Shown: positions 5,750 through 59,760, counted from the stretch's first letter. The stretch is DNA of 64,000 bases from Alphaproteobacteria bacterium (GCA_965216605.1 CBDCGG010000002.1:239645-303644); one strand, 5' to 3'. Made by a program: numbers and translations. Notes: generated from the sequence alone by a model not told the origin.

Positions 5750-6018
5750 CCGAGAAGCCTTTTGCCCACCCCCCTAACGACGACAACTGAACGAGCCGTC
5801 CTGCTTGCCTGCCTAGAATGGCAGCTAGAGGCGGGATGCGACAGCTGGCTTGCCCGCGATAGCGCACAGGCACGAGAAGAGAGACAAGGATGGCAACAAG
5901 CGGACAGCCTTGTTCGCAACCTGCTGGATTCGCTCTCTGGGCAAACTTCCTCGACCGAAAGCTCCTCTGCGAAAAAACTCGCAACAAAGCGCGCGACGAG
6001 GTCTGAGGGCGTTGTGTT

Positions 6019-6705
6019 GTGTCGCAAGGTGTGTCAAATGTTTTTCCCGCAGCAGAGCAACGGAGGTCGCCATCGCTATCGCCATCACCGATTCTCGCTC
6101 CTGCCGAGGCTGTGGTGGAGGCACGCAAGGTTGCCGAGGGGTGTCGGACGCTCGAAGAGCTCGAGCTTGCGGTGCGAGCCTTCGCTCTCTGTTCGTTGAA
6201 AGAGGGCGCGCGCAACACGGTCTTCGCCGAGGGCAATCCCAACGCCGAGCTAGTCGTCGTCGGCGAAGCGCCGGGGCGCGAGGAAGACGAACAGGGAAAA
6301 CCCTTCGTAGGCGAGAGCGGACAACTGCTTTCGCGCATGCTCCATGCGATCGGCATCGCTAGCCGCGAGCAATACCGCGTTACCAATTTGGTCTATTGGC
6401 GCCCACCGGGCAATCGTCAGCCGAGCTTGGACGAGATCGCCGTCTGCTACCCCTTCTTTCTGCGTCACATGGCGCTTGTGAAACCGCGTTGGCTTTTGTT
6501 GCTGGGCAATGTTGCGATGCAAAATGTTCTCTCTGAGCGAAGGGGGATCACGAAGCTACGCGGACAATTATTTCCGATCACGCTGGGGGCAACGCCTGTT
6601 GTGGCATTGCCCTCCTTTCATCCCTCCTACCTGCTGCGCACGCCCGTAAAGAAGGCGGCGGCGTGGCACGATCTACTAATGTTGCGACGCGCTATGAATA
6701 AATGA
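6019..6705 (+). CDS. uracil-DNA glycosylase family 4 catalytic core (likely the 3' part of a frameshifted longer gene starting about 5762)
   Basis: RNTVFAEGNPNAELVVVGEAPGREEDEQGKPFVGESGQLLSRML...VYWRPPGNRQP...LPSFHPSYLLR are the family-4 UDG signature blocks. The ORF 5762-6199 in another frame encodes an LL.W..EAG.D-type N-terminal segment typical of alphaproteobacterial family-4 UDGs, so a frameshift is inferred near 5950-6020. Confidence 0.75.
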   Translation: MSQGVSNVFPAAEQRRSPSLSPSPILAPAEAVVEARKVAEGCRTLEELELAVRAFALCSLKEGARNTVFAEGNPNAELVVVGEAPGREEDEQGKPFVGESGQLLSRMLHAIGIASREQYRVTNLVYWRPPGNRQPSLDEIAVCYPFFLRHMALVKPRWLLLLGNVAMQNVLSERRGITKLRGQLFPITLGATPVVALPSFHPSYLLRTPVKKAAAWHDLLMLRRAMNK

Positions 6706-6773
6706 TTTTGGAATAAGTGATTTTGGAATAAATGATTTTGGAATAAGTTATTTTGGAATAAGTGATTTTGGCA
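6701..6773. repeat. AT-rich 15-bp tandem repeat (aaNtgattttggaata), about 4.8 copies, between udg stop and thrC start
   Basis: Seen directly: aatgattttggaata / agtgattttggaata / aatgattttggaata / agttattttggaata / agtgattttgg. Confidence 0.9.
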
Positions 6774-6898
6774 GGTTGCATCGCACCCTAGAAAAGAGTA
6801 GAATGGTGCGAAGAAATAATATAAGCATGATACCTGATGGGGGGATTTATCCCCGACATGATCCACGACAAACACAACAACACGAGCGAGTTTGCAGC

Positions 6899-9322
6899 AT
6901 GAACTACATGCACTACAAATCCACGCGCGGGGGCGAGAAAAAAACCTTCGCGGATATTCTCAGTAGCGGTCTTGCTGCGGACGGCGGTCTGTACGAGCCT
7001 ACGAGTTGGCCGCACCACCGACGGCTACGAAGTTTCTTAGCGAGCGGCCCCACCTTCCCTGAGGTCGTGGGAGCGGTTGTGGGCGTTTTCGCCGGACGGC
7101 GCAGTTTGACGCATCTTGATTTTACGGCGATTGCTCGCAAGGCCTTTGAACCTTTTCACAGCCGCGCTGTCGTGCCTCTGCGCGAGGTGGAGCATAATCT
7201 TTGGCTGCTCGAACTTTTTCACGGACCGACGCTCTCGTTCAAGGATATTCCGTTGCAATTCTACGGACAGCTTCTGGAAGCCCTTGCGTCCGAGAGGAAA
7301 CGGCTGCTGATTATGATCGGCGCAACATCGGGCGACACGGGCTCTGCCGCCATCGAGGCGATGAAACCCGTTCGCGGCGTGCGATTGTTCATGCTGCATC
7401 CGAAGGATCGTATCTCTGCGTTGCAGCGCAAGCAAATGACAAGCGTCCAATCCCCGAACATCTGCAACATCGCCGTCGAGGGCAGCTACGACGATTGCCT
7501 CCGTCTGGTCAAGGCGGCGGCGCAATCGGAGGCGATCAACGCGCGCGGACAGGTCTCGGCGGTCAACTCTTTCAATTGGATTCGCATTGCCGTGCAAAGC
7601 GCTATCTACCTCTACGCAGCCCAACAGATTCCGCGACGCGCCAAGTCGGTGCGCTTTGCGCTCGCCAGCGGCAACTTCGGCAACGCTTACGCCGGCTATG
7701 TTGCCAAAAAGCTGGGTGCGAACATCGAGGGTCTTACGCTCGCGGTCAGTCACAACGACTTCCTGCATAACCTTTTTCAACAAGGCTCTGCTGCAAGCGG
7801 CGAGGTCGTCCCCAGCCTTGCGCCCAGCATCGACATCATGACGCCGAACAACGTCGAGCGATTGCTCTTCCGCAGCCTTGGCGACAGCGCGCGCCAATGG
7901 AGCAAGGTGCGCGAACAAGCGGAAGAAAGCGGGACGCTCCGCGTGCCGAAAGGCGCGTTGCGTTCGGAGATCTTTCGCTTTTTCCGCACGCAACGTTTCG
8001 ACGACGAGCAAATTCTCGAAGCAATGAGCCAAGCCTACGACAGCGTCGGAGAACCCCTTGACCCCCATTCTGCCATTGCGCTCAAGGCGGCAAAGGATGC
8101 GAGCTTCGAGAAGGAAAAGCAGGCGAAAAAGAAAAAGGCGCACGATATGTGCACCATCGCCCTTGCCACTGCTTCTGCGGCGAAGTTTCCTGAGACGGTG
8201 GAGCGCGCGATCGGGGCAAGACCGCACATGCCCTTGAGGCTTGCCGAGCTCGAGACGAGGGCGGAGGAGTACGAGACAATCGCTGCCGACTTCGAGGCGC
8301 TAGAAAGCATTATTGTTGCGCGATTGCAAAAACCTCTCGATTCGGACGCAAGTGTTCAGGATGCAAGTGTTCAGGATGCAAGCGTTCAGGCGGCAAGCGT
8401 TCAGGCCGCAAGCGTTCAGGAACCTGCAAGCGTTCAGGATGCAAGCGTTCAACCTGCGGAGGGACTTGCCGCAACCGCTGCGGGCTCGGCGACAATTGCC
8501 GAGGACGCTGTGGCAAGCGAAACAGCGTTAGAGGTAGCGCAAGAGGACGAGGAGAAGCGCGAGGAGGGAGAGGACGAAAATTTGGCAGGAATGCCCGAAA
8601 AGATGTCCGAGGCGAATCTTGCCATGGGTACTGCATCCGCCCTCTTCTCTTCGGTACAGCCTCCAGAGATGCCTGCTGTAGCTGCGTTGACGGATGAGGA
8701 AGATTCGTTAGAGAAGAAGATCGCCAAACTGAAAGAACAGACGGCGCAACTCGACGAGAGTCTCGACGATCCTATGACTGCTGCTTCCTCGTCTTTGACG
8801 AGCGATCCTTTCGCCGCTCCTTCCGCCGCAGATTTCTCAGCCACCTCTAGCTTGGAGGACACGCCGAGGGAGAGCGATCCTTTTGCGACACCCCTCCCCT
8901 CTCAGCAAGAAGACGAAACGCAAGAAGACGAGCAGACAGATTTCTCTGCAGAAATAGGAACGACAGAAACAGAAACGACGATGGAAACGATGGGAAGCGA
9001 CGGCGGCGATGATGGCATGGTTTCGTTGGCTGACGCGGCGGAGCAGGGGCAGGCATCGTTGCAAGAGAAGATCGCCAAGTTGAAAGAGCAGAGCGAGAAG
9101 CTTGATGAGGTAGCGGAGACGCCATACTCGCCTTTCGAGGAAGCAAAGGAGGAGACGAGCGAGATCGTTGGGGCAGAGAATTTCTTCTCTCAACCTGCGC
9201 CTCCATCTCAAAATGAGGCTGTCGAATCGAGCGAAACATCTTCTACGGCATCTTCTACGACACCCTCTACGACACCTTCTTGGGAAACACCTCTGGCGGA
9301 AGATCAGGAAGAAAAAACTTAA
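6899..9322 (+). CDS. thrC: threonine synthase (ThrC) fused in-frame to about 330 aa of acidic, repeat-rich low-complexity C-terminal tail
   Basis: MNYMHYKSTRGGEKKTFADILSSGLAADGGLYEP... is the ThrC N-terminal signature. The PLP fold continues to about residue 470 (..SAAKFPETV..). The frame then stays open through (DASVQ)x7, a duplicated KIAKLKEQ(T/S)xxLDE block and a long D/E/S/T-rich region to the stop at 9322. Confidence 0.8.
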   Translation: MNYMHYKSTRGGEKKTFADILSSGLAADGGLYEPTSWPHHRRLRSFLASGPTFPEVVGAVVGVFAGRRSLTHLDFTAIARKAFEPFHSRAVVPLREVEHNLWLLELFHGPTLSFKDIPLQFYGQLLEALASERKRLLIMIGATSGDTGSAAIEAMKPVRGVRLFMLHPKDRISALQRKQMTSVQSPNICNIAVEGSYDDCLRLVKAAAQSEAINARGQVSAVNSFNWIRIAVQSAIYLYAAQQIPRRAKSVRFALASGNFGNAYAGYVAKKLGANIEGLTLAVSHNDFLHNLFQQGSAASGEVVPSLAPSIDIMTPNNVERLLFRSLGDSARQWSKVREQAEESGTLRVPKGALRSEIFRFFRTQRFDDEQILEAMSQAYDSVGEPLDPHSAIALKAAKDASFEKEKQAKKKKAHDMCTIALATASAAKFPETVERAIGARPHMPLRLAELETRAEEYETIAADFEALESIIVARLQKPLDSDASVQDASVQDASVQAASVQAASVQEPASVQDASVQPAEGLAATAAGSATIAEDAVASETALEVAQEDEEKREEGEDENLAGMPEKMSEANLAMGTASALFSSVQPPEMPAVAALTDEEDSLEKKIAKLKEQTAQLDESLDDPMTAASSSLTSDPFAAPSAADFSATSSLEDTPRESDPFATPLPSQQEDETQEDEQTDFSAEIGTTETETTMETMGSDGGDDGMVSLADAAEQGQASLQEKIAKLKEQSEKLDEVAETPYSPFEEAKEETSEIVGAENFFSQPAPPSQNEAVESSETSSTASSTTPSTTPSWETPLAEDQEEKT
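8345..8452 (+). repeat. 15-bp in-frame tandem repeat x7 (gaYgcaagYgttcag, encoding DASVQ) inside the thrC tail
   Basis: Seen directly in sequence. Confidence 0.9.
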
Positions 9323-9350
9323 GCCCTTTGATTGACGAATGCAAAACATC

Positions 9351-9404
9351 GCGTGCGTAGCGCGCGTTCGTTTACTCGTCAAAACGCGAGTCCCGTTTTT
9401 TTGG
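9351..9404 (+). repeat. partial copy (3' end) of the dispersed hairpin-rich element (see 42612-42858), directly after the thrC stop; ends in CCCGTTTTTTT
   Basis: gcgtgcgtagcgcgcgttcgtttactcgtcaaaacgcgagtcccgtttttttgg aligns to the 3' end of copy A (gcgcgcaagcgcgcgttcgtttacgcgtcaatgcgcgagtcccgttttttgg). Confidence 0.7.
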
Positions 9405-9457
9405 ACACTGCCGCTATCTGTTACAAAGTTAAAAAGCGATCAAAGCGATCAAAGCAA

Positions 9458-12391
9458 TCAAGCCGCCCAGTTCTCCCCAATCCGATAGTCCACCTCCAAA
9501 ACAACCGACAACATCTGTTGCGGCTCAGCGGCGCGTTGCATAATCTCCTGAACAGCCCGCGCACTCGCCTCCGCTGTCCCCCGCGGTGCCTCCAAAACAA
9601 TCTCGTCATGAACCTGCAAAAGCATGCGCGTGCCATACAAAGCATGCGTCTTCTGCCCCAAAGCGCGGTGAATGCGAATCATCGCCTGCTTGACAATGTC
9701 CGCCGCCGTTCCCTGTATCGGCGCGTTGATCGCCTGCCGCTCAGCATGCAAACGCATGTTCTGCTTGCGATCAGCAATCAAAGGTAGGTGAATCTTCCTG
9801 CCAAACAATGTTTCGACATAACCCCGCTTACGACAAAGCTCGACGGTTTTCGCACGATAGTCTCTGAGCTGAGGGTAACGAGCAAAGTAGAGGGCAATCA
9901 AATCCTGCGCCTCCGCCTCGCCTATACCCAACTGCTTCGACAAGCCAAAGCGCGAGATGCCATAAAGCAATCCGAAGTTCACCGCCTTGGCAGCCCGACG
10001 CTGCTCCTTAGATATTTCTTGAGAAACTTTTTTTCCTTTTGCGCCAAACATTTCCTCTGCGGTTGCCTGATGGATATCGCGTCCTTCTGCGAAGCTTTCC
10101 AACATACCCTCGACGGAGGCGATGGCGGCGACGAGGCGCAGTTCTATCTGCGAATAATCCAACGACACTAAAGCGAATCCCTTCTCTGCGATGAATGCAC
10201 TGCGGATGCCGCGCCCTTCCTCGTTGCGCACGGGAATGTTTTGCAAGTTCGGCTCGGAGGAAGCGAGCCGTCCCGTCTGCGCGCCGCTCAAAGAAAATGA
10301 GGTGTGGATGCGTCCCGTCGCCACTTGCACCTCGCGCGGTAGTGCCTCGGTATAGGTCGAGCGCAACTTCGAGATATGCCGCCATTGCAAGACCTGTTCT
10401 GCGATCTCGTGTCCCTGCTCTGCCAAACCCTCCAAAACACGGCTGTCGGTCGCATACTGCCCGCTCGGTGTCTTCTTAGCTCCCTTCAGCTTGAGACGCT
10501 CGAACAGCACTTCTCCCAACTGCTTCGGCGACGAGAGCAAAAAATCTCCTCCTGCCAAGGCGACGATCTGTTTTTCTAACGCGCTTGTCTGCTTTTCAAA
10601 GCGCGCGCTCAAAGCTTGCAAGACATCCACATCGATCAGCACTCCGCAGCGTTCCATAGCGACGATCACCGGAATCAGAGGACGCTCCAAAGTCTCGTAG
10701 ACCTGCTTACCGCCCTCGTGCAGCAGACGCGGAGAAAAAATTTCGTGCAAGCGTAGCGTAGCCCAAGCGTCCTCTGCGGCGTAAGCGCTCGCCGCCTCGA
10801 TCGAAACGCGATCGAAGCAGACCGCCTTGCGCCCTGTGCCGACGATCTCCTTGTAGCGCGTCAAGCGATGCTGCGCATGCTTATCTACGAGCAGGTCCAA
10901 GCCGTGTCCATGCTTACCGCCGTCAAGCACCGCCGACATCAGCAGCGTATCGTCGCAAGGTGTTATTTCTAGTGCGTATTTTTGCAAGATCGCTGCGTCG
11001 AATTTCAAATTATGTCCGACCTTGAGCGTCGCGCGATCTTCCAACAGAGGCTTCAAGACAGCCAAAGCTTCGTCGAGCGCGATCTGCTGCTCTAATAAAT
11101 TTCCGTCAGCATCGCGATGCGCCAACGGCAGATAGGCAGCGCGCTTGCTTACAGAAGAGTCCGCAGAATAGTCCGCAGAATATTCTATGCACATTGCAAC
11201 GCCGACTAGTTCTGCCGCGATGATATTCAACCCCGTCGTCTCGACATCGATCGCTAGGCAACCTTGCTCTCGTGCTTTGTTGCAAAAATCTTCTAAGGCT
11301 TTTTTATCGCGCAAGGTCTCGATACTGTGGGGAGGGCTTTGTGCCTCGCCCTCCTTGCCCTGCTCACCCTGCTCGCCCTGCTCGCCCTGCTCACCCTGCT
11401 GTGCGTGGAGCAGGCTGTTCAAGCCCTGCTTATATTGCGCTTGGTGCGAATCCAAGTCGCGTACTAATGAGCGAAACTCCTGTTGTTGGAAGAAGGCGCG
11501 CAGCTTCTCGCGTTCGGGACGCGGAGCTTCTAGTGTCTCCAAGGAGAGCGGACAGGGCGCGTCGTCGGCAAGGGATACCAAGTTATAACTTAGGCGCGCT
11601 TGCTCTGCGTGTTGTTGCAACGCCTCGCGCCGTTTAGGCTGAGTGATCTCTGCTGTCCTTGCCAATAAGGACTCCAGGTCTCCGAAGCGCTGGATGAGCT
11701 CGGCTGCGGTTTTGACCCCGATGCCCGGCACGCCCGGCACATTGTCGCTGCTGTCGCCTGCGAGTGCCATTACATCGCGTACTTTGTTCGGCGGCACGCC
11801 GAATCGTTGCTGTACGGAAGCCTCGTCGATGACGACTCCCTTGACGGGGTCGCGCAAGAACAGCTGTCCGTCTTCGACGAGCTGCATCATGTCTTTGTCG
11901 GAAGAGCACACCTCGACGCGCCAGCCCTTGTCGCGCGCCAAGCGAGCGTAGAGGGCGATGAGGTCGTCCGCCTCGAAGCCTTGCTGCTCTACATTAGGCA
12001 TGGAGAAGGCTTCGGCTGCCGCGCGCACGAGGGGAAATTGCGCCTTGAGTTCAGGCGGTGTCTCGCTGCGGTTCGCCTTGTAGGCGGGGTAGAGCGTGTT
12101 GCGAAAGCTCTTGCCCTTGGCATCGAAGACGACGAGGAAACGTTGCTGCGGACGCTCCCGCAACAGCTGCGCGAGCATGCGCGTAAATCCGTAGAGCGCG
12201 CCTACGGGCGTACCGTCCGCGCGCGCCATCGGCGGCAGGGCGAAGAAGGCGCGAAAGACATAGCCGTAGGCATCGATCAGCGTCAAATCCGATGCGGGTT
12301 GCGTCGGCGGAGTTTGTGGCTGCGAGGATTGTGGCTGCGAAGTTTGCGTCTGCGAGTTGTCGCCGCGTGGGCTTGGCTGTTCTGCCACCAA
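9458..12391 (-). CDS. polA: DNA polymerase I (PolA)
   Basis: 977 aa with 5'-3' exonuclease N-terminus (LIDAYGYVFRAFFALP), 3'-5' exonuclease and Klenow polymerase motifs (RRAAKAVNFGLLYGIS, LLQVHDEIVLE). Contains an in-frame (GEQ)x4 repeat insertion and a Q/P/S/T-rich N-terminal extension. Confidence 0.9.
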   Translation of the reverse strand: MVAEQPSPRGDNSQTQTSQPQSSQPQTPPTQPASDLTLIDAYGYVFRAFFALPPMARADGTPVGALYGFTRMLAQLLRERPQQRFLVVFDAKGKSFRNTLYPAYKANRSETPPELKAQFPLVRAAAEAFSMPNVEQQGFEADDLIALYARLARDKGWRVEVCSSDKDMMQLVEDGQLFLRDPVKGVVIDEASVQQRFGVPPNKVRDVMALAGDSSDNVPGVPGIGVKTAAELIQRFGDLESLLARTAEITQPKRREALQQHAEQARLSYNLVSLADDAPCPLSLETLEAPRPEREKLRAFFQQQEFRSLVRDLDSHQAQYKQGLNSLLHAQQGEQGEQGEQGEQGKEGEAQSPPHSIETLRDKKALEDFCNKAREQGCLAIDVETTGLNIIAAELVGVAMCIEYSADYSADSSVSKRAAYLPLAHRDADGNLLEQQIALDEALAVLKPLLEDRATLKVGHNLKFDAAILQKYALEITPCDDTLLMSAVLDGGKHGHGLDLLVDKHAQHRLTRYKEIVGTGRKAVCFDRVSIEAASAYAAEDAWATLRLHEIFSPRLLHEGGKQVYETLERPLIPVIVAMERCGVLIDVDVLQALSARFEKQTSALEKQIVALAGGDFLLSSPKQLGEVLFERLKLKGAKKTPSGQYATDSRVLEGLAEQGHEIAEQVLQWRHISKLRSTYTEALPREVQVATGRIHTSFSLSGAQTGRLASSEPNLQNIPVRNEEGRGIRSAFIAEKGFALVSLDYSQIELRLVAAIASVEGMLESFAEGRDIHQATAEEMFGAKGKKVSQEISKEQRRAAKAVNFGLLYGISRFGLSKQLGIGEAEAQDLIALYFARYPQLRDYRAKTVELCRKRGYVETLFGRKIHLPLIADRKQNMRLHAERQAINAPIQGTAADIVKQAMIRIHRALGQKTHALYGTRMLLQVHDEIVLEAPRGTAEASARAVQEIMQRAAEPQQMLSVVLEVDYRIGENWAA

Positions 12392-12395
12392 AGTT

Positions 12396-13811
12396 CTAGC
12401 GCGAGGGTAGGGTTATGATGTCGTCGATTCGCCCTGCTTGCAAATGCTCGAAGGAGGATTGCAACAACGATCCTAGCGGACGGACGCGCGGTCCTGTGGG
12501 TTCCATCAAGACATAGGTTTTTCCCTGATGGGTGTAGGATGCCTCTCCCTCAAGCGGCTGCATCTCGACACCCAAGAAGGCGTGTTTGGGAACAAGAAAG
12601 ATCGCAACGGAGCGGTCTTCCGCCAGCAGACCAAGGAGTCCCATCATGGCAGTCGATTTAGAATCGCAGTCGCCCTTGTTTTGGGCAAGCATCTCCAACG
12701 GCGGCGAAAAGCCGATGAAGCCACGCACCTTGCCTTGCGTCAGATCGTTATAAGGAATGTTCTGAAAGAAGTGCAAAACCTCGGCAACCCGCTCGCGCTC
12801 GCTTTTGCCCTTGAAGGTCGCGCGAAAGGCGCGCGCGACAGGACGCAGACGCTCCTGCGCTTGGATTGCGATGCGTGCGTAATCGATCAGCGTTCGATCC
12901 GCTTGCTTCTTCGACGGGAGAAGATAGTGCAGGGCGTAGAACTGGGATTTTTTGATCTTCATGTCGGCGATGACTTCCTTGCGCGCCAAGGATAGGCGTT
13001 CAGAAGTCTGTGCGAGCAAGGCACGAGCGCGCTCCTGGCTACCCTCGTTAAACTTTTTCACTTCCACCATGTCGCTTTTGTGACGCGCGAGACGCGAGCG
13101 CAAACGCGCGTTCGTCTCGCTGATAGTTTGGGAGGCACGCGCGCGTGTGCCTGTGTCGTAGGTGCGCTTCTCGTTTTTCAAAGGAAACTTGATGCCGCCC
13201 GCTTCCCTGACCACTCTGAACCGCAAGCCTTCGGGCAAGGTGGCGTTTGCTTGAGCGACGATCGTCTCTAGGTCGGCGTAGAACTTTTTCAATATGTCGT
13301 CCGTGTTGCGAGCAAAGCTCATTCCGGGCAGCAGCGACGAGATTCGGATATCCAACAGATTCTCTCCTGCCAGTTGCAGTTTCAAATCCAGCGTCGAGGG
13401 CTCTTTGAGCGTCATGGAAACAACCCTTGAGCCGAGCCTGCCGTTGAAGGTTGCGATCGATGTTTGCAGAGAGGCTATTCCCGCATCGAATCCCGCTTGC
13501 AAGGCAACGAGGTATTTTGCTGCCGTCTCCTGCCCTGCGAGCAGGATGAAGTCGCTAGCCGCACGATCGAGCGCGGCGTTGTCTAGCAACAAGGCTTGCG
13601 ATTCTTCGATCGTTTTGCGCGGCAAGGCAAAGTCTATCTCCTCGCTGCGCTTTACGCTGTCTTGATAGATGTAGCTAAAGACGATCTTTTGGTCCTTCTC
13701 CTCCTTGTCAAAGTGCAACTGCTTCGCCGCTGAAGATGCAGGGGCAAGCGCACCGCTTGCAAGCAACAGCGACAACAACATCCCGCGCATCGTTTTCTTG
13801 TTCATCGGCAT
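12396..13811 (-). CDS. secreted hypothetical protein with C-terminal transglutaminase-like Cys-His-Asp/Glu core
   Basis: Signal peptide (MRGMLLSLLLASGALAPASSA). C-terminus NKGDCDSKSTAMMGLLGLLAEDRSVAIFLVPKHAFLGVEM...YVLMEPTGP fits G.C....LL..LGI.aR.V....HA...V......DPT of transglutaminase-like cysteine peptidases. Start chosen at an internal Met; 13790 is equally possible. Confidence 0.45.
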   Translation of the reverse strand: MPMNKKTMRGMLLSLLLASGALAPASSAAKQLHFDKEEKDQKIVFSYIYQDSVKRSEEIDFALPRKTIEESQALLLDNAALDRAASDFILLAGQETAAKYLVALQAGFDAGIASLQTSIATFNGRLGSRVVSMTLKEPSTLDLKLQLAGENLLDIRISSLLPGMSFARNTDDILKKFYADLETIVAQANATLPEGLRFRVVREAGGIKFPLKNEKRTYDTGTRARASQTISETNARLRSRLARHKSDMVEVKKFNEGSQERARALLAQTSERLSLARKEVIADMKIKKSQFYALHYLLPSKKQADRTLIDYARIAIQAQERLRPVARAFRATFKGKSERERVAEVLHFFQNIPYNDLTQGKVRGFIGFSPPLEMLAQNKGDCDSKSTAMMGLLGLLAEDRSVAIFLVPKHAFLGVEMQPLEGEASYTHQGKTYVLMEPTGPRVRPLGSLLQSSFEHLQAGRIDDIITLPSR

Positions 13812-13965
13812 CGTTTTTTTGTCCGTTCCATTGCTTGCGAAGTATAGCAAAGGACGACCGCCGTGCATCCGTTTTTTGAGAGCTGTTTGTCTGATCCTCG
13901 AAGCTTGTGCTAGGGTGAGAGCTACAACCTAGGCGACCGACAATAGCAACACGAGTTCTCCCGCC

Positions 13966-31703: not shown

Positions 31704-32739
31704 ATGAGCGAAAAGAAGCAGAGGATCGATCCTATTCGGCGGGTACGCGGGATGCAGGATTTTCTGCCTGAGCGCGCGGCGGGGATGCGCAGGATTGCGC
31801 GGATTGCGGAGGATGTTGCGAGGCTGTACGGATTCGAGCGCATAGAGATTCCTATATTAGAGAGGGCAAGTTTGTATCGGAGGTCGTTGGGTTTAGGGAG
31901 CGATGTTGTGATGAAGGAGATGTATGCCTTTGAGGATAAAAAAGACAAGAATGACAATAGCGAGGAGTTATGTTTGCGTCCTGAGGGGACGGCGGGGGTG
32001 ATGCGGATGTTGATCGAGAACGGATTGACGCAGACGCTACCGCAGCGATGGTTTTACGAAGGGGCGATGTTTCGTAGGGAGCGTCCGCAGAAAGGACGAT
32101 TTCGCCAATTTCACCAGTGCGGCGTGGAGTTTTTGACTACTCACTACGATTTCATAACAGTCGACTTAGAGGTATTGAAATGCGCTTGGCATTTTTTGAA
32201 AGAATTAGGATTAGCAAAACAAGGATACTTAAATTCAATTGGCTTGGAACAATTGAGGAAAGAGCGCAATACAACATATTGCTTACGCAACACTTTCAAG
32301 AATATAGAACGATGCTCTTTGCTAGAGAGTGTTGAACGCTTCAACGAGGTCAACGCCTTGCGCATTTTTGATTCTAAAGACCCAAGACCAAGAGGCGATT
32401 GAAAACGCACCAGACTTTGAATTAAACGAAACATCAAAAGAAAATATTAAAACAATAAAAAGCTGGTTAACAGAACATTTAAACATACCTTATGAATCGA
32501 TTCTAGCTTGTGCGCGGATTGGATTATTACAGCAACCTTGTTACGAATTTGTTGAAAAAGGATCGACACGCGAACAAGCAACGCTGTTAGCGGGGGGGCG
32601 GTACAATGGCTTGTGCGAACAAATTAGCGGACGCGCTGACAACCCCCCTTTGACGGGCGTGGGCTGGGCAGCAGGATTGGAACGTTTGCTTAATTTATCT
32701 TCATTGTCGAGTAATTTTAATTCAGAGATAAAAATATAA
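31704..32739 (+). pseudogene. hisS: histidyl-tRNA synthetase (hisS), compositionally chimeric, frameshifted and 3'-degraded
   Basis: First frame (31704-32402): HisRS motif 1 and motif 2 (FRRERPQKGRFRQFHQCGVEFL). GC drops from about 60% to about 35% near 32150 inside the gene. Second frame (32329-32739) continues HisRS (..GGRYNGLCEQISG..PLTGVGWAAGLERL) after a frameshift. The anticodon-binding domain is not intact; only stop-interrupted remnants lie in the AT-rich DNA that follows. Confidence 0.6.
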
Positions 32740-33355
32740 AAATTTGTCTTTCTGATTCTATTGTTCCGATATTTGCAAATAAAATTCCTCTGTAAGCAAA
32801 AGAGTTTATGATTGAAAATTTTAGAAACAAATTACATTTTAAAATTCTTAAAAATAATAAAAATATTGTTCTTGTTCTTCTTAAAATGTCAAATATCATT
32901 ACGCTCAAAATGATTACAGAAAAAATAGAAGAAAATTCAAATTTTCTTATTGTTAGATCTATAAGTAGCGATAAGGAAAAATGATGACTTTACATTGTAT
33001 AATATTAAAAAAAGAGATCAAAGCATTATGTTGAGCGTTTGCAGACTTAATTTTATTGATCAATTAAACAAAGAACTAAAAGATTTCATTCAAGAAGAAA
33101 ATCTATAACCCCCTGATGGAAAAACAATTCTATCGGCATGGTGGGCGTTCGTGTGATGCATGCATCCAAGTCATGACACTTGGCGGATTAAAACATGCGT
33201 ATAGGCACGACGATAAGCAGTATGATCTGCCAAGTCGGGAATAAATTCCCCCGCCATGCCGAATCTACATGCATCCTATAAGCATCTCCCGCGTCGGTAA
33301 GAAAAAGGTTGGTTATTAATTTATTTGCTTTTTTGTTAAATTAAGTTATTGTATT
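32150..33355. other. AT-rich (about 30-38% GC) island in an otherwise about 60% GC region, containing the degraded hisS 3' end
   Basis: Compositional discontinuity seen directly. Short stop-interrupted reading frames with HisRS anticodon-domain-like residues (e.g. 32808-32981 MIENFRNKLHFKILKNNKNIVLVLL...). No intact ORF. Confidence 0.6.
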
Positions 33356-33359
33356 AACT

Positions 33360-34520
33360 ATGAGTACACAAGACGAGTTCTGGCGCGAGCGATTCGCAAC
33401 CTCCCTCCGTCAAGAGGAAACAACCCAACTCGCCCTAAACAATCCCACAATCCCTAATGCCGAGCGCGTAACCCTCGCAAAAACACTCGCATCCCTAACC
33501 CCCCTTTGTAACGAAATCCGCTCCTACAATAATCTAACCCAACAAAAAACCTCCGCCCAAAACCTCCTCGCCGAAGAACCAGATTTGGATAAAGCGCTCA
33601 AATCCCTCGCCTCAGAAGAAATTATAACCCTAGAAAAACAACGCACCGCCATCCTAGACAATATTCAAACCCTCATGCTCGACTCATCGGAGGAAGAAAT
33701 AAATACCGCCATCCTAGAAATTAGACCCGGTACAGGCGGCGAGGAAGCCGCCCTCTTCGCAGCCGACCTCCTATCTATGTACCAACGATACTCCGCAAAT
33801 AATTCCTACAAGTTCGAGGCTATCTCCATACAACAAACCCAACAAGGCGGTATCAAAGAAGCCATCGCTACCATCGAAGGACCCCGCGCCTTCACAAGAC
33901 TCTCGGTAGAATCAGGCGTGCATCGCGTCCAACGAATCCCCGAAACCGAAACACAAGGCAGGATCCATACCTCCGCCGCAACCGTCGCCATCCTACCGCA
34001 AACCTCAGAAGTACAACACCCCCTCCTAGAACAAGACCTCCGAACAGAAACCTTCCGCGCACAAGGCGCAGGAGGACAGCATGTCAATACAACCGACTCC
34101 GCCGTGCGTATAACCCATATACCCTCAGGACAAGTCGTACAATGCCAAGACGAAAAATCTCAACACCGAAACCGCGAAAAAGCACTCAAAGTTCTCACCG
34201 CACGAGTGCAACAACATATCCAAGATTCACAAAATGCCGAACGCTCCGCAACACGCAATTCACAAATAGGTAGTGGTGATCGCTCAGAGCGAATCCGTAC
34301 TTATAACTTTCCGCAAAACCGAATCACCGACCACCGCATCTCCCTCACCCTCTATAAACTCGATCGCATCATGCAAGGCGACGGGTTGGAGCTACTACTC
34401 AATCCCCTCGAAGCCGCCCGAAAATCCGAGCGCATAACCCAACTCCAAGAACAAAGCCCCCTGCCAAAAACCTCCCCCTCTCCCAACAAGCAAGCAAACA
34501 AAAAAAATGCCTCGCCTTGA
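33360..34520 (+). CDS. prfA: peptide chain release factor 1 (PrfA)
   Basis: GGQ motif (FRAQGAGGQHVNTTDSAVRITHIPSG), PxT-type decoding region, RF-1 length. Coding strand is strongly C+A-rich. Confidence 0.9.
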   Translation: MSTQDEFWRERFATSLRQEETTQLALNNPTIPNAERVTLAKTLASLTPLCNEIRSYNNLTQQKTSAQNLLAEEPDLDKALKSLASEEIITLEKQRTAILDNIQTLMLDSSEEEINTAILEIRPGTGGEEAALFAADLLSMYQRYSANNSYKFEAISIQQTQQGGIKEAIATIEGPRAFTRLSVESGVHRVQRIPETETQGRIHTSAATVAILPQTSEVQHPLLEQDLRTETFRAQGAGGQHVNTTDSAVRITHIPSGQVVQCQDEKSQHRNREKALKVLTARVQQHIQDSQNAERSATRNSQIGSGDRSERIRTYNFPQNRITDHRISLTLYKLDRIMQGDGLELLLNPLEAARKSERITQLQEQSPLPKTSPSPNKQANKKNASP

Positions 34521-56254: not shown

Positions 56255-56305
56255 GGCAGGTTTTTATTGGCTGTTGGTCTTGTCATTTTTTCCGTGCAGA
56301 GAAGG

Positions 56306-56425
56306 GACGGCAACGCCCTACTCTTCCACGCCACGAGGACGCAGTACCATCGGCGCAGGAGGCTTTCACGTTCGAGTTCGGAAAGGGATCGGGTGTTGAG
56401 CCCTCCGCTATGATCGCCGCCCCGT
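56306..56425 (-). rRNA. rrf: 5S ribosomal RNA
   Basis: Reverse complement ...GGCGGCGATCATAGCGGAGGGCTCAACACCCGATCCCTTTCCGAACTCGAACGTGAAAGCCTCCTGCGCCGATGGTACTGCGTCCTCGTGGCGTGGAAGAGTAGGGCGTTGCCGTC matches the 5S consensus (CCGAACTC.GAAGTGAAAC, GCGCCGATGGTA, GAGAGTAGG). Confidence 0.85.
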
Positions 56426-56563
56426 CACTGCACGGAGATAAAGTATAAATTTTTTGCGACAAATTTGTCGTTTTTTGTTTTGAGAACGCTTTTCAATTTG
56501 AATTTCTGTCACAGCACTATCTATGGGCTGAGGCGCTGCTTGCGTTTTGTCGATGCAAAGAGC

Positions 56564-59410
<2,847 letters not shown>

Positions 59411-59760
59411 GCTCTTTGCTGACAATTCGCAAGCAGCGCCTCAACTCATAGAGGGCTGCTGTTGACAGAAATTGTGCGTTCTTTCCGATTTCACAAAACT
59501 CCGTGCGCAACACGCCGACAGAGCCAGAAAATCGAATTCTTACAAACGATGGACTTGTTCAATAGTTCCCCCCCGAAACGCCTCTCGTATTGCAAATACA
59601 AGCAGCGCGAAGCCCATAATAGCCGAGCCAGTACTAGAGCGCAAGATAAAAAGCACAAAAAACGCCTCAACGATAAAAAAACATGCAAGCGAAAATTTTC
59701 CCATCCTCCCCTCTTTTGCTCCCCTCTTTGTGCGCCTTGCCTCAAAGCAACTTGCGTAGA

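What the first reader, a model, noticed from the sequence alone, without database searches (positions are those of the whole stretch)
8250..9322. Threonine synthase fused in-frame to a 330-aa acidic, tandem-repeat tail
The ThrC catalytic domain ends around codon 470 of the ORF, but the frame continues through (DASVQ)x7 from a 15-bp tandem repeat, two copies of KIAKLKEQ(T/S)AQLDE, and a long D/E/S/T-rich disordered region. An essential biosynthetic enzyme carrying a long acidic tail is unusual; it could be a real fusion (surface-exposed or scaffolding), a recent repeat-driven loss of the native stop, or an error.
Basis: seen in the sequence. Interest (0 to 1): 0.6.

Follow-up and report, generated by a model that had tools for sequence, protein, structure and literature searches.

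The report
Threonine synthase with conserved acidic tail
An ordinary, intact threonine-making enzyme in a group of sponge-associated bacteria carries a real, evolutionarily maintained 330-residue floppy acidic tail holding two conserved short helices, a tail found on no other protein in public data and whose job (probably docking or self-assembly) is still unknown.

Summary
Window 6899..9322 (+) encodes an 807-aa protein. Residues 1-477 are a complete, catalytically intact threonine synthase. Residues 478-807 form an acidic tail (net charge -60) predicted to be disordered, and it contains a 15-bp x7 in-frame repeat.

It is not an error or a recent stop loss. At least ten orthologues from independent assemblies of an unnamed, small-genome alphaproteobacterial lineage carry the same tail in the same gene order. 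A member of that lineage has been reported from sponges.

The tail has four short conserved islands:
- an LDSD junction;
- two paralogous heptad helices, SL-x-KIAKLKEQ(T/S)-xx-LD;
- a G(A/S)xxFF motif.

The islands are under purifying selection as strong as the enzyme core (dN/dS 0.07 against 0.085). The spacers between them evolve fast (about 0.45) by lineage-specific in-frame tandem repeats, yet always stay 300-450 aa long and strongly acidic.

An exhaustive profile search of 1.84 billion representative proteins found the tail only in this clade's ThrC.

The best reading is a sticker-and-spacer interaction or assembly module on an otherwise normal enzyme, possibly also balancing an unusually basic catalytic domain (pI 9.2-9.8). 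The function is inferred, not shown. I class it as a new variant of a known kind, of moderate interest.

The parts
6899..9322 (+). Whole gene: thrC with C-terminal extension, 807 aa plus a TAA stop at 9320-9322
   Evidence: ORF list. Identical to the public protein P0001. The start is conserved across orthologues.
6899..8329 (+). Threonine synthase catalytic part (aa 1-477), basic with pI 9.3 and net charge +9
   Evidence: TIGR00260 scores 218 bits; PF14821, PF00291 and PF24857 match. Best solved structure is 4f4f, E = 2e-79, over aa 4-470. AF2 pLDDT is 80-95. dN/dS is 0.085.
7241..7243 (+). Lys115 of the invariant F-K-D motif, which is the PLP Schiff-base lysine of ThrC by family knowledge
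   Evidence: Invariant F114 K115 D116 in alignment A1. Coordinates.
8099..8146 (+). Clade-specific lysine-rich loop inside the catalytic domain (ASFEKEKQAKKKKAHD), longer than in tail-less ThrC
   Evidence: Alignment A1 columns 448-466. pLDDT dips to 68-71 here. In L002, L007 and L008 the loop is itself a 15-bp repeat encoding DKKLKNKKARNKKA.
8330..8347 (+). Junction island K-P-L-D-S-D; D-S-D is invariant in all tails
   Evidence: Alignments A1 and A2.
8344..8451 (+). 15-bp in-frame tandem repeat, 7 copies, encoding (D/A/P)ASVQ; part of spacer 1
   Evidence: TRF score 140. Copy number is 7 here, 6 in L002, 10 in L008 and 14 in L007. It is absent from L005, L006, L001 and L004.
8452..8662 (+). 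Rest of spacer 1: acidic, A/T/E-rich, predicted disordered
   Evidence: pLDDT about 30. Spacer net charge is -18. Poorly alignable between subclades.
8663..8764 (+). Island 1: PEMPAVAALT followed by heptad helix 1 (EEDSLEKKIAKLKEQTAQLDESL, aa 600-622)
   Evidence: Invariant residues are L, K, I, L, K, E, T, L. AF2 predicts a helix at 600-622 with pLDDT 72-79. The a/d positions read L-I-L-T-L-L. Island dN/dS is 0.07.
8765..9016 (+). Spacer 2: acidic, S/T/P-rich, with DPF-type short motifs and small 12- and 15-bp repeats
   Evidence: pLDDT about 30. Net charge -21. TRF rows at 8806-8829 and 8949-8979.
9017..9118 (+). Island 2: short helix (SLADAAEQG) followed by heptad helix 2 (ASLQEKIAKLKEQSEKLDEVAE, aa 719-740); a paralogue of helix 1
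   Evidence: 18 invariant columns. AF2 predicts helices at 710-715 and 721-740, with pLDDT up to 75. hhalign of island 1 against island 2 gives probability 97%, E = 5.9e-11, 57% identity over 23 columns.
9167..9199 (+). Island 3: aromatic motif V-G-A-E-N-F-F-S-Q-P-A, which is G(A/S)xxFF across the clade
   Evidence: G281, A282, F285 and F286 are invariant in A2. Coordinates.
9200..9319 (+). C-terminal S/T/E-rich end, including a 12-bp repeat at 9236-9280; ends in acidic E-x-(E/D)-K-(T/S)
   Evidence: TRF. Alignment A1.

Best explanation
SHOWN:
- The gene encodes a complete, constrained threonine synthase whose C-terminus continues into a translated extension of about 330 aa that is predicted to be disordered and strongly acidic.
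- The extension is specific to one lineage and has been kept by selection across a whole clade of small-genome Alphaproteobacteria. A member of that clade has been reported from sponges.
- Its architecture is 'stickers and spacers'. Four short islands are conserved as tightly as the enzyme core: an LDSD junction, two paralogous three-heptad amphipathic helices each with a conserved polar T/S at a core position, and a G(A/S)xxFF motif.
- The intervening spacers turn over quickly by in-frame tandem-repeat slippage, but always remain long (300-450 aa in total) and net negative (-44 to -60).

INFERRED:
- The two helices are protein-protein contact elements. They may pair as a coiled coil with each other, in cis or between ThrC molecules, or they may dock onto an unidentified partner.
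- The acidic spacers act as flexible, self-repelling tethers. They may also shield or solubilise the unusually basic catalytic domain.
- The tail therefore controls where ThrC sits, what it is assembled with, or how active it is. It does not change the chemistry ThrC performs.
For: The tail is real and old:
- The ten best hits (807-924 aa) all carry it. The remaining 110 listed are 462-521 aa.
- The alignment shows the islands.
- Gene order is the same everywhere: aminotransferase, UDG, thrC, then polA on the opposite strand.

It is translated and selected (NG86 dN/dS):
- Window against L002: core 0.085, islands 0.070, spacers 0.47.
- Window against L005: core 0.167, islands 0.039, spacers 0.30.
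- L005 against L006: core 0.30, islands 0.10, spacers 0.87.

Structure:
- AF2 gives pLDDT below 50 throughout the tail except helices 600-622 (72-79) and 721-740 (up to 75).
- The charge-hydropathy plot puts all eight tails on the disordered side.
- Both helices follow the heptad pattern L-I-L-(T/S)-L-(L/A).
- The helices are paralogous, at 97% hhalign probability.

Spacers:
- Every lineage has its own repeats, with periods of 9 to 45 bp, nearly all multiples of 3. Almost all of them lie in the tail.
- Every spacer is net negative in all eight sequences.

Charge complementarity:
- The clade's catalytic domains carry +8 to +20 (pI 9.2-9.8). The median for 110 tail-less homologues is -2.5.
- Soluble neighbouring proteins in the window are not basic.

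Uniqueness:
- hmmsearch of the tail profile against 1.84 billion representatives found only 4 proteins, all from this clade.
Against: - No partner, oligomeric state or localisation is known.
- The helices are short, at about three heptads. Their amphipathic moment is only moderately unusual: 3-7% of shuffles reach it.
- The motif occurs on no other protein, so it is not a shared address tag.
- The tool does not report contacts from the AF2 model, so helix-helix or helix-core docking could not be examined.
- A basic ThrC core also occurs in about 15% of tail-less homologues. The ten tailed proteins are one lineage, so the charge correlation is effectively n=1.
- All evidence is comparative and in silico.
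Confidence: 0.5

Rival explanations
1. Assembly or sequencing error, or a very recent loss of the native stop codon driven by the 15-bp repeat. Under this reading the tail is untranslated or accidental read-through sequence.
For: - The repeat sits only 14 nt after the canonical ThrC end.
- The neighbouring UDG gene in this same assembly does carry a frameshift that seven relatives lack, so local errors or pseudogenes do exist here.
Against: - The same open frame is present in independent assemblies from different samples.
- The islands have dN/dS 0.04-0.10.
- The tail is present in orthologues that lack the SVQ repeat altogether: L005, L006, L001 and L004.
- In the gene-frame (codon-level) alignment the tail reads open to its own stop in all eight genes, so length differences keep the frame, and nearly all tail repeat periods are multiples of 3.
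Confidence: 0.01
2. A tolerated, functionless appendage. An ancient stop loss added junk sequence that persists because it is harmless in small symbiont populations under drift.
For: - Spacer dN/dS is relaxed, at 0.43-0.87.
- Spacer sequences are almost unalignable between subclades.
- These are small genomes of 1.5-1.9 Mb, consistent with a host-associated lifestyle.
- Slippage repeats also occur in polA, the UDG linker and intergenic DNA.
Against: - About 80 island codons are as constrained as the catalytic core. There are 18 invariant columns in island 2 across orthologues whose synonymous sites are saturated.
- Net charge and overall length are maintained in all lineages.
- A genome under reduction would be expected to delete 1 kb of useless coding DNA (inference).
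Confidence: 0.07
3. An intramolecular electrostatic regulator or solubiliser. The polyacidic tail folds back dynamically on the basic catalytic domain and its lysine-rich loop, in the manner of the acidic tails of Hfq or HMGB1. It would either gate activity or keep a destabilised, basic enzyme soluble. Under this reading the helices are the docking points on the core.
For: - The catalytic domain has pI 9.2-9.8 and net charge +8 to +20 in all ten tailed proteins. The median for tail-less homologues is -2.5.
- A clade-specific K-rich loop at aa 401-416 co-occurs with the tail, and in relatives it is expanding by its own 15-bp repeat.
- The tail carries -44 to -60.
Against: - Sixteen of 110 tail-less ThrC are equally basic.
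- The strongest constraint falls on hydrophobic heptad positions, not on the acidic residues.
- A 330-aa tail is far longer than charge neutralisation would need.
- This reading does not exclude the best explanation.
Confidence: 0.2
4. An exported or surface-displayed host-interaction module. The acidic repeat tail, with its DPF-like and FF motifs, would work like the acidic tandem-repeat effectors of Ehrlichia or the eukaryote-like proteins of sponge symbionts, making ThrC a moonlighting protein.
For: - A member of the lineage has been reported from sponges.
- The tail is acidic, Cys-free, S/T-rich and carries copy-number-variable repeats. From my own knowledge, these are compositional traits of type-I-secreted repeat proteins.
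- It contains several D-P-F, S-P-F and N-F-F motifs.
Against: - There is no signal peptide, because the N-terminus is the standard ThrC start.
- There is no GGxGxD repeat.
- No secretion genes lie within +/-10 kb. The neighbours are flgI, an aminotransferase, UDG, polA, proS and lolCDE-like genes.
- A 477-aa PLP enzyme that folds in the cytoplasm is a poor type-I substrate (inference).
- The DPF motifs are not conserved in the distant orthologues.
Confidence: 0.06
5. A cargo-targeting extension. The helices would work like the encapsulation peptides of bacterial microcompartments or the targeting peptides of encapsulins, delivering ThrC into a protein compartment or condensate.
For: [quoted passage not shown]
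- AF2 gives confident short helices within a disordered region.
Against: - No other protein carries the motif, whereas compartment cargo sets normally share theirs.
- The linkers here are 80-160 aa and polyacidic, which by my own recollection is much longer than typical encapsulation-peptide linkers.
- No shell gene was seen, but only 64 kb of a genome of about 1.6 Mb could be read.
- Threonine synthesis has no toxic or volatile intermediate that would call for a compartment (inference).
Confidence: 0.05

Closest known systems
Class II (E. coli / yeast / Brucella type) threonine synthase, for example PDB 4f4f (Brucella melitensis ThrC, 468 aa)
   Same: - Residues 4-470 align end to end with 4f4f at E = 2e-79.
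- TIGR00260 scores above its cut-off, and the domain set is Thr_synth_N + PALP + THR4_C.
- The invariant motifs are intact: FKD, GATSGDTGSAA, GNFGN and DPH.
   Different: - It carries 330 extra C-terminal residues, which no tail-less homologue has.
- The core is basic, at pI 9.3.
- It has an extra lysine-rich loop.
Plant threonine synthase with its N-terminal regulatory extension, which mediates S-adenosylmethionine activation (PDB 1e5x, 2c2b)
   Same: It is a ThrC that has gained a lineage-specific terminal extension with a non-catalytic role (my own knowledge). 1e5x is a distant hit at E = 9.5e-7.
   Different: - The plant extension is N-terminal, short, and becomes ordered on the dimer.
- This one is C-terminal, 330 aa, polyacidic and predicted to be disordered.
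- The two share no sequence relationship.
PopZ-type bacterial scaffold proteins: short conserved helices separated by an acidic, proline-rich disordered linker, forming condensates in Alphaproteobacteria
   Same: - The composition is acidic and rich in P, S, T and A.
- The layout is helical 'stickers' separated by fast-evolving disordered 'spacers'.
- The host is alphaproteobacterial.
This is an analogy drawn from my own knowledge. The literature context appears.
   Different: - There is no detectable sequence similarity. No Pfam family of any kind reached E < 0.03 on the tail.
- Here the module is fused to an enzyme rather than standing alone.
- Self-assembly has not been shown.
Encapsulation peptides of bacterial microcompartment cargo enzymes, and encapsulin cargo-loading peptides
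   Same: Short amphipathic helices are joined to an enzyme terminus through a poorly conserved disordered linker (abstract of PMC12339742).
   Different: - There are two helices on very long polyacidic linkers.
- The motif is shared with no other protein.
- No shell genes are known for this lineage; this was not testable here.
Auto-regulatory acidic C-terminal tails, such as those of Hfq, HMGB1 and SSB
   Same: A polyacidic disordered C-terminus is attached to a basic folded domain.
   Different: - By my own recollection those tails are about 10-40 aa long and sit on nucleic-acid-binding proteins.
- This one is 330 aa, sits on a metabolic enzyme, and has conserved hydrophobic heptad helices.
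Acidic tandem-repeat proteins of Ehrlichia and Anaplasma (TRP32, TRP47, TRP120)
   Same: - The host is an alphaproteobacterium from a host-associated lineage.
- The region is acidic, Ser/Thr-rich and has copy-number-variable tandem repeats.
This is my own knowledge.
   Different: - Those proteins are stand-alone secreted effectors whose repeats are the functional part.
- Here the repeats are the least conserved part, and the protein is a housekeeping enzyme with no sign of export.

Membership tests
Threonine synthase (ThrC, TIGR00260 equivalog) | Whole-protein score above the curated NCBIfam cut-off | tested here: met
   218.1 bits against a cut-off of 167.1, over aa 74-438.
Threonine synthase (ThrC, TIGR00260 equivalog) | Domain set Thr_synth_N + PALP + THR4_C | tested here: met
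   PF14821 scores 43.7 bits (cut-off 25). PF00291 scores 62 bits (cut-off 35). PF24857 scores 26.3 bits, just under its cut-off of 27, but it is listed in the precomputed domains of all orthologues.
Threonine synthase (ThrC, TIGR00260 equivalog) | PLP-binding lysine (F-K-D) and the cofactor and substrate phosphate loops (GATSGDTGSAA, GNFGN) | tested here: met
   F114 K115 D116, G141-A151 and G258-N262 are invariant across tailed and tail-less homologues. Assigning these motifs to PLP and phosphate binding rests on family knowledge.
Threonine synthase (ThrC, TIGR00260 equivalog) | End-to-end similarity to a solved ThrC structure | tested here: met
   4f4f, E = 2e-79, query residues 4-470 against chain residues 6-460 of 468. 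AF2 pLDDT is 80-95 over residues 1-477.
Threonine synthase (ThrC, TIGR00260 equivalog) | Conversion of O-phosphohomoserine to threonine | not testable with these tools
   This needs an enzyme assay or thrC complementation. Purifying selection on the core (dN/dS 0.085) is consistent with activity.
Any curated protein family for the tail (Pfam-A, NCBIfam) | A significant profile match to aa 478-807 | tested here: not met
   The best Pfam hit has E = 0.031, and the best NCBIfam hit has E = 0.0029 at 17 bits against a cut-off of 70. All are generic coiled-coil noise. There is no PopZ-family hit.
Coiled-coil / heptad helix | Hydrophobic residues at a/d positions over at least 3 heptads in a predicted helix | tested here: met
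   Helix 1 has L604, I608, L611, T615, L618 and L622. Helix 2 has L, I, L, S, L, A at the equivalent positions. AF2 predicts helices at 600-622 and 721-740.
Coiled-coil / heptad helix | Actual oligomerisation | not testable with these tools
   No multimer prediction or contact map is available. This needs CD, AUC or cross-linking.
Bacterial microcompartment encapsulation peptide / encapsulin targeting peptide | A short amphipathic helix on a disordered linker at an enzyme terminus | tested here: met
   The definition comes from the PMC12339742 abstract.
Bacterial microcompartment encapsulation peptide / encapsulin targeting peptide | The same peptide shared by several cargo proteins, and shell genes present in the genome | tested here: not met
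   The first half was tested and not met: the motif is found on no other protein in 1.84 billion representatives or elsewhere in the window. The second half, shell genes, could not be checked beyond the 64-kb window.
RTX / type-I-secreted acidic repeat proteins | GGxGxD nonapeptide repeats | tested here: not met
   A regex search of the 807-aa protein finds none.
RTX / type-I-secreted acidic repeat proteins | Adjacent ABC, MFP and TolC export genes | tested here: not met
   Neighbours within about 10 kb are flgI, an aminotransferase, UDG, polA, proS and LolC/LolD-like genes. The rest of the genome was not examined.

The most novel reading that the evidence does not exclude
The tail is a previously undescribed self-assembly or targeting device. 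Through its two paralogous heptad helices and polyacidic spacers, it would concentrate threonine synthase into a higher-order body inside the symbiont, such as a condensate, a filament or a polar or envelope-associated patch. Alternatively it would present the enzyme to the sponge host. Either way it would be the first case of a core amino-acid biosynthetic enzyme in bacteria organised spatially by its own long disordered extension.
Probability: 0.15. Interest if true: 0.7.

Novelty: new variant of a known kind. Interest (0 to 1): 0.45.

Why it matters
Long disordered regions (over 300 aa) that are kept by selection are rare on bacterial housekeeping enzymes. Most bacterial examples studied so far sit on scaffolds, RNA-processing proteins or division proteins.

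This case offers a clean natural experiment:
- The enzyme core is intact.
- The tail exists in one clade only.
- Constraint on the sticker islands can be measured separately from the spacers: dN/dS 0.07 against about 0.45.
- The spacers visibly evolve by repeat slippage while keeping their charge and length.

If the helices mediate assembly or docking, this would extend sticker-and-spacer organisation to primary metabolism in reduced-genome symbionts. It might also point to a symbiosis-specific control of threonine supply.

There is a practical lesson too. Automatic annotation records this protein as a plain ThrC and hides the extension. The finding also shows that a 'suspicious' repeat-bearing read-through can be settled by comparing orthologues alone.

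Tried and rejected
1. Word-indexed searches with the tail profile and with a 54-column island-2 profile. The first returned only two fragments of the same family, P0121 and P0122. The second returned nothing. Neither retrieved the known full-length members, so both are uninformative as negatives. The negative result I rely on is the exhaustive hmmsearch.

2. A scan of JGI metagenome contigs with tail patterns. It gave 600 pattern matches, none confirmed. The family is absent or very rare there.

3. A scan of genome contigs. Only three loci were found, all thrC tails in the same gene order. There was no stand-alone tail gene.

4. Pfam and NCBIfam searches on the tail alone gave only sub-threshold coiled-coil noise.

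5. A test of whether acidic tails are a genome-wide habit. No other ORF of at least 200 aa in the window exceeds net -15 per 60 aa, and the one that reaches -15 is a shadow ORF on the strand opposite the flgI frame. The motif occurs nowhere else. Rejected.

6. Opposite-strand ORFs in the tail (8449-8862, 8837-9382 and 8847-9239, minus strand). I treated these as shadow frames because substitutions in the plus frame are overwhelmingly synonymous in the islands, at 15 synonymous to 5 non-synonymous.

7. A separate product from an internal start. The candidate Met in PEMPAVAA is not conserved in L001 or L004. Rejected.

8. Literature searches for ThrC with a disordered or acidic tail. One generic review of PLP enzymes turned up, and nothing specific.

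9. An exact look-up of P0005 in the contig index, which is not on record, and a cluster-name look-up, which returned no names.
Full report
**1. What is in the sequence**

A single open frame runs from 6776 to 9322 on the + strand. The start shared with orthologues, and with the identical public protein P0001 (807 aa), is the ATG at 6899.

Residues 1-477 are a complete threonine synthase:
- TIGR00260 scores 218.1 bits against a cut-off of 167.1.
- PF14821, PF00291 and PF24857 all match.
- The sequence aligns end to end with the 468-aa Brucella ThrC structure 4f4f, query 4-470 at E = 2e-79.
- AlphaFold2 pLDDT is 80-95.
- The hallmark motifs are invariant: F-K115-D, GATSGDTGSAA, GNFGN and DPH.

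The frame then continues for 330 codons, from 8330 to 9319. Tandem Repeats Finder confirms a 15-bp x 7.0 repeat at 8344-8451, at 86% matches and score 140. It encodes (D/A/P)ASVQ. The two KIAKLKEQ motifs are at aa 608-615 and 725-732.

The tail has these properties:
- D+E 23%, K+R 5%, S+T 22%, net charge -60, no cysteine.
- It lies on the disordered side of the charge-hydropathy boundary.
- Its pLDDT is below 50 except in two helices, 600-622 and 721-740.

The only corrections are that the tail begins at 8330 rather than 8250, and that the second motif reads KIAKLKEQSEKLDE.

**2. Error, recent accident, or real?**

It is real and old.

In a search of 5.8 billion proteins, the ten best hits are ThrC proteins of 807-924 aa that match the query over 91-100% of its length, except P0008, whose best BLASTP segment covers 59% but which carries the full tail. 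The remaining 110 of the best 120 are 462-521 aa. Alignment shows the same tail in all ten.

I fetched or located seven full-length loci from separate assemblies and samples (L001, L002, L004-L008), plus the contig-end fragment L003. In each, the frame is continuous, and every locus that reaches upstream shows the same gene order: aminotransferase, family-4 UDG, thrC with tail, then polA converging from the other strand.

Three different members sit in one sample, ERZ25069837, at 9x, 38x and 117x coverage.

The organisms are unnamed Alphaproteobacteria with genomes of 1.5-1.9 Mb. One of them, JABAAW01, is described in the literature as coming from Vazella and Haliclona sponges (PMC13393909).

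The SVQ repeat exists only in the window's own subclade. It is absent from L005, L006, L001 and L004, which nevertheless have the tail. The repeat did not create the fusion.

**3. Selection**

I built a codon alignment of eight genes and computed Nei-Gojobori dN/dS.

| Pair | Catalytic core | Four conserved islands (80 codons) | Rest of tail |
|---|---|---|---|
| Window vs L002 | 0.085 | 0.070 | 0.47 |
| Window vs L005 | 0.167 | 0.039 | 0.30 |
| L005 vs L006 | 0.30 | 0.10 | 0.87 |

The tail is therefore translated in this frame. Its islands are as constrained as the enzyme, while the spacers are relaxed.

Every subclade has its own set of tandem repeats, with periods of 9, 12, 15, 18, 24, 30, 39 and 45 bp, nearly all of them in frame (a few short low-scoring 7-, 8- and 10-bp rows are the exceptions). 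Almost all of them lie in the tail. Window, L002, L008 and L007 carry 7, 6, 10 and 14 SVQ units respectively.

Despite this turnover, some properties hold across all orthologues:
- All tails are 303-453 aa long.
- Net charge is -44 to -60.
- Each individual spacer is net negative in all eight sequences.

**4. Anatomy of the tail**

There are four islands:
- (i) The junction (K/T)-P-L-D-S-D, at 8330-8347.
- (ii) PEMPAVAALT followed by helix 1, EEDSLEKKIAKLKEQTAQLDESL, at 8663-8764.
- (iii) SLADAAEQG followed by helix 2, ASLQEKIAKLKEQSEKLDEVAE, at 9017-9118. Eighteen columns are invariant.
- (iv) G(A/S)xxFF, at 9167-9199.

Both helices show the heptad pattern L-I-L-(T/S)-L-(L/A). The polar T or S at a core position is invariant.

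Profile-profile comparison shows that the two helices are paralogues: probability 97%, E = 5.9e-11, 57% identity over 23 columns. This is an internal duplication older than the clade.

AF2 gives these helices pLDDT 72-79 inside an otherwise unstructured region. From my own knowledge, that is typical of segments that fold on binding.

**5. Uniqueness**

An exhaustive hmmsearch of the tail profile against 1.84 billion cluster representatives found four proteins, all ThrC tails of this clade. A scan of genome contigs found only thrC-linked copies. A scan of JGI metagenomes found none.

The motif and the acidity are unique within the 64-kb window. No Pfam or NCBIfam family matches. I found no paper describing such a ThrC.

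**6. An additional correlation**

The catalytic domains of all ten tailed proteins are basic, at net +8 to +20 and pI 9.2-9.8. The 110 tail-less homologues have a median of -2.5, and 16 of the 110 reach +8 or more.

Soluble neighbouring proteins in the window are not basic: the aminotransferase, PolA and ProRS have pI 6.1-6.3.

The clade also has an extra lysine-rich loop at aa 401-416. In relatives that loop is itself a 15-bp repeat.

This suggests charge complementarity between core and tail. It is one lineage, however, so it counts as a single evolutionary observation.

**7. Mechanism**

Shown: an intact enzyme carrying a selected, disordered, polyacidic sticker-and-spacer extension.

Inferred, at roughly 50%: the paralogous heptad helices, and perhaps the FF motif, are contact sites. 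They could mediate self-association or docking onto a partner. The acidic spacers would serve as long flexible tethers that may also shield the basic core.

Rivals:
- Fold-back electrostatic auto-regulation or solubilisation, about 0.2. This is compatible with the main reading.
- A tolerated junk extension, about 0.07. Island constraint and maintained charge and length argue against it.
- An exported host-interaction module, about 0.06. There is no export signal, no RTX motif, no nearby export genes, and the DPF motifs are not conserved.
- A compartment-targeting peptide, about 0.05. The architecture resembles encapsulation peptides as described in the PMC12339742 abstract, but the motif is shared with no other protein.
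- Error or recent stop loss, about 0.01.

**8. Comparison with what is known**

The protein is a member of the ThrC family, and every sequence-level defining feature tested was met.

The tail belongs to no described family. In function it most resembles the helix-plus-acidic-linker design of scaffold proteins such as PopZ, of encapsulation peptides, and of auto-regulatory acidic tails. It fails or cannot be tested on their membership criteria.

I class it as a new variant of a known kind: an enzyme with a lineage-specific disordered extension. Interest is 0.45. It would be clearly unusual to someone who studies bacterial disordered regions or symbiont genomes, but it has no demonstrated function and does not bear directly on a long-standing open question.

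**9. Limits**

- Only 64 kb of the genome of about 1.6 Mb could be read. I therefore could not check for a second thrC, possible partners, shell genes or secretion genes.
- No multimer modelling or contact output was available.
- Two word-indexed searches were uninformative.

Noticed in passing
window 5762-6705 (+): The family-4 uracil-DNA glycosylase gene just upstream is split in the window. Its conserved N-terminal part (LLACLEWQ, ORF 5762-6199) and its UDG domain (ORF 6019-6705) are in different frames. In seven relatives (L001, L002, L004-L008) they form one ORF of 322-428 aa. The break lies in a linker that carries a copy-number-variable 12-bp repeat (GTGTGCCGCAAG). It is either a real pseudogene or truncation, or a local assembly error.
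   Followed up: partly
window 6696-6771: A 15-bp tandem repeat, GAATAAGTGATTTTG x5.1 at 91% matches, spans the UDG stop codon and the thrC upstream region. L002 has only about 3 degenerate copies at the same place. It could affect the spacing of the thrC promoter or leader.
   Followed up: partly
window 8099-8146 (aa 401-416 of ThrC): A clade-specific lysine-rich surface loop inside the catalytic domain. In L002, L007 and L008 it is a 15-bp x2.7 repeat encoding DKKLKNKKARNKKA. It co-occurs with the acidic tail and with a basic core of pI 9.2-9.8.
   Followed up: partly
window 56305-59411 (-): The 23S rRNA (56561-59411) and 5S rRNA (56305-56421) genes are present, but no 16S rRNA gene lies within the remaining 4.6 kb upstream. 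This suggests an unlinked rRNA operon, as seen in many reduced host-associated genomes.
   Followed up: no
window 31704-32739 (+), within the GC dip at 32001-34000: GC content drops to 41.6% against about 56% elsewhere. A histidyl-tRNA-synthetase-like gene appears split there into two overlapping ORFs in different frames, 31704-32402 and 32329-32739. This could be a frameshift, a pseudogene, or a foreign or decayed segment. The identification as HisRS is by eye from motifs only.
   Followed up: no
window 11357-11395 (-) and 9433-9461: PolA carries a GEQGEQGEQGEQG insertion from a 9-bp repeat. An AAAGCGATC x3.2 repeat lies in the thrC-polA intergenic region and runs into the 3' end of polA (its stop is at 9458-9460). 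Short in-frame and intergenic slippage repeats seem common in this genome.
   Followed up: no
L001, L005, L006 (sample ERZ25069837): Three distinct members of the clade, with ThrC 62-64% identical to the window protein, co-occur in one metagenome at 9x, 38x and 117x coverage on contigs of 0.74-1.94 Mb. This suggests several related symbiont species in one host sample.
   Followed up: no
window 12396-13925 (-): A 509-aa basic ORF (pI 9.6) next to polA has no Pfam match. A 473-aa ORF, also without a Pfam match, sits in the same position in L001.
   Followed up: no
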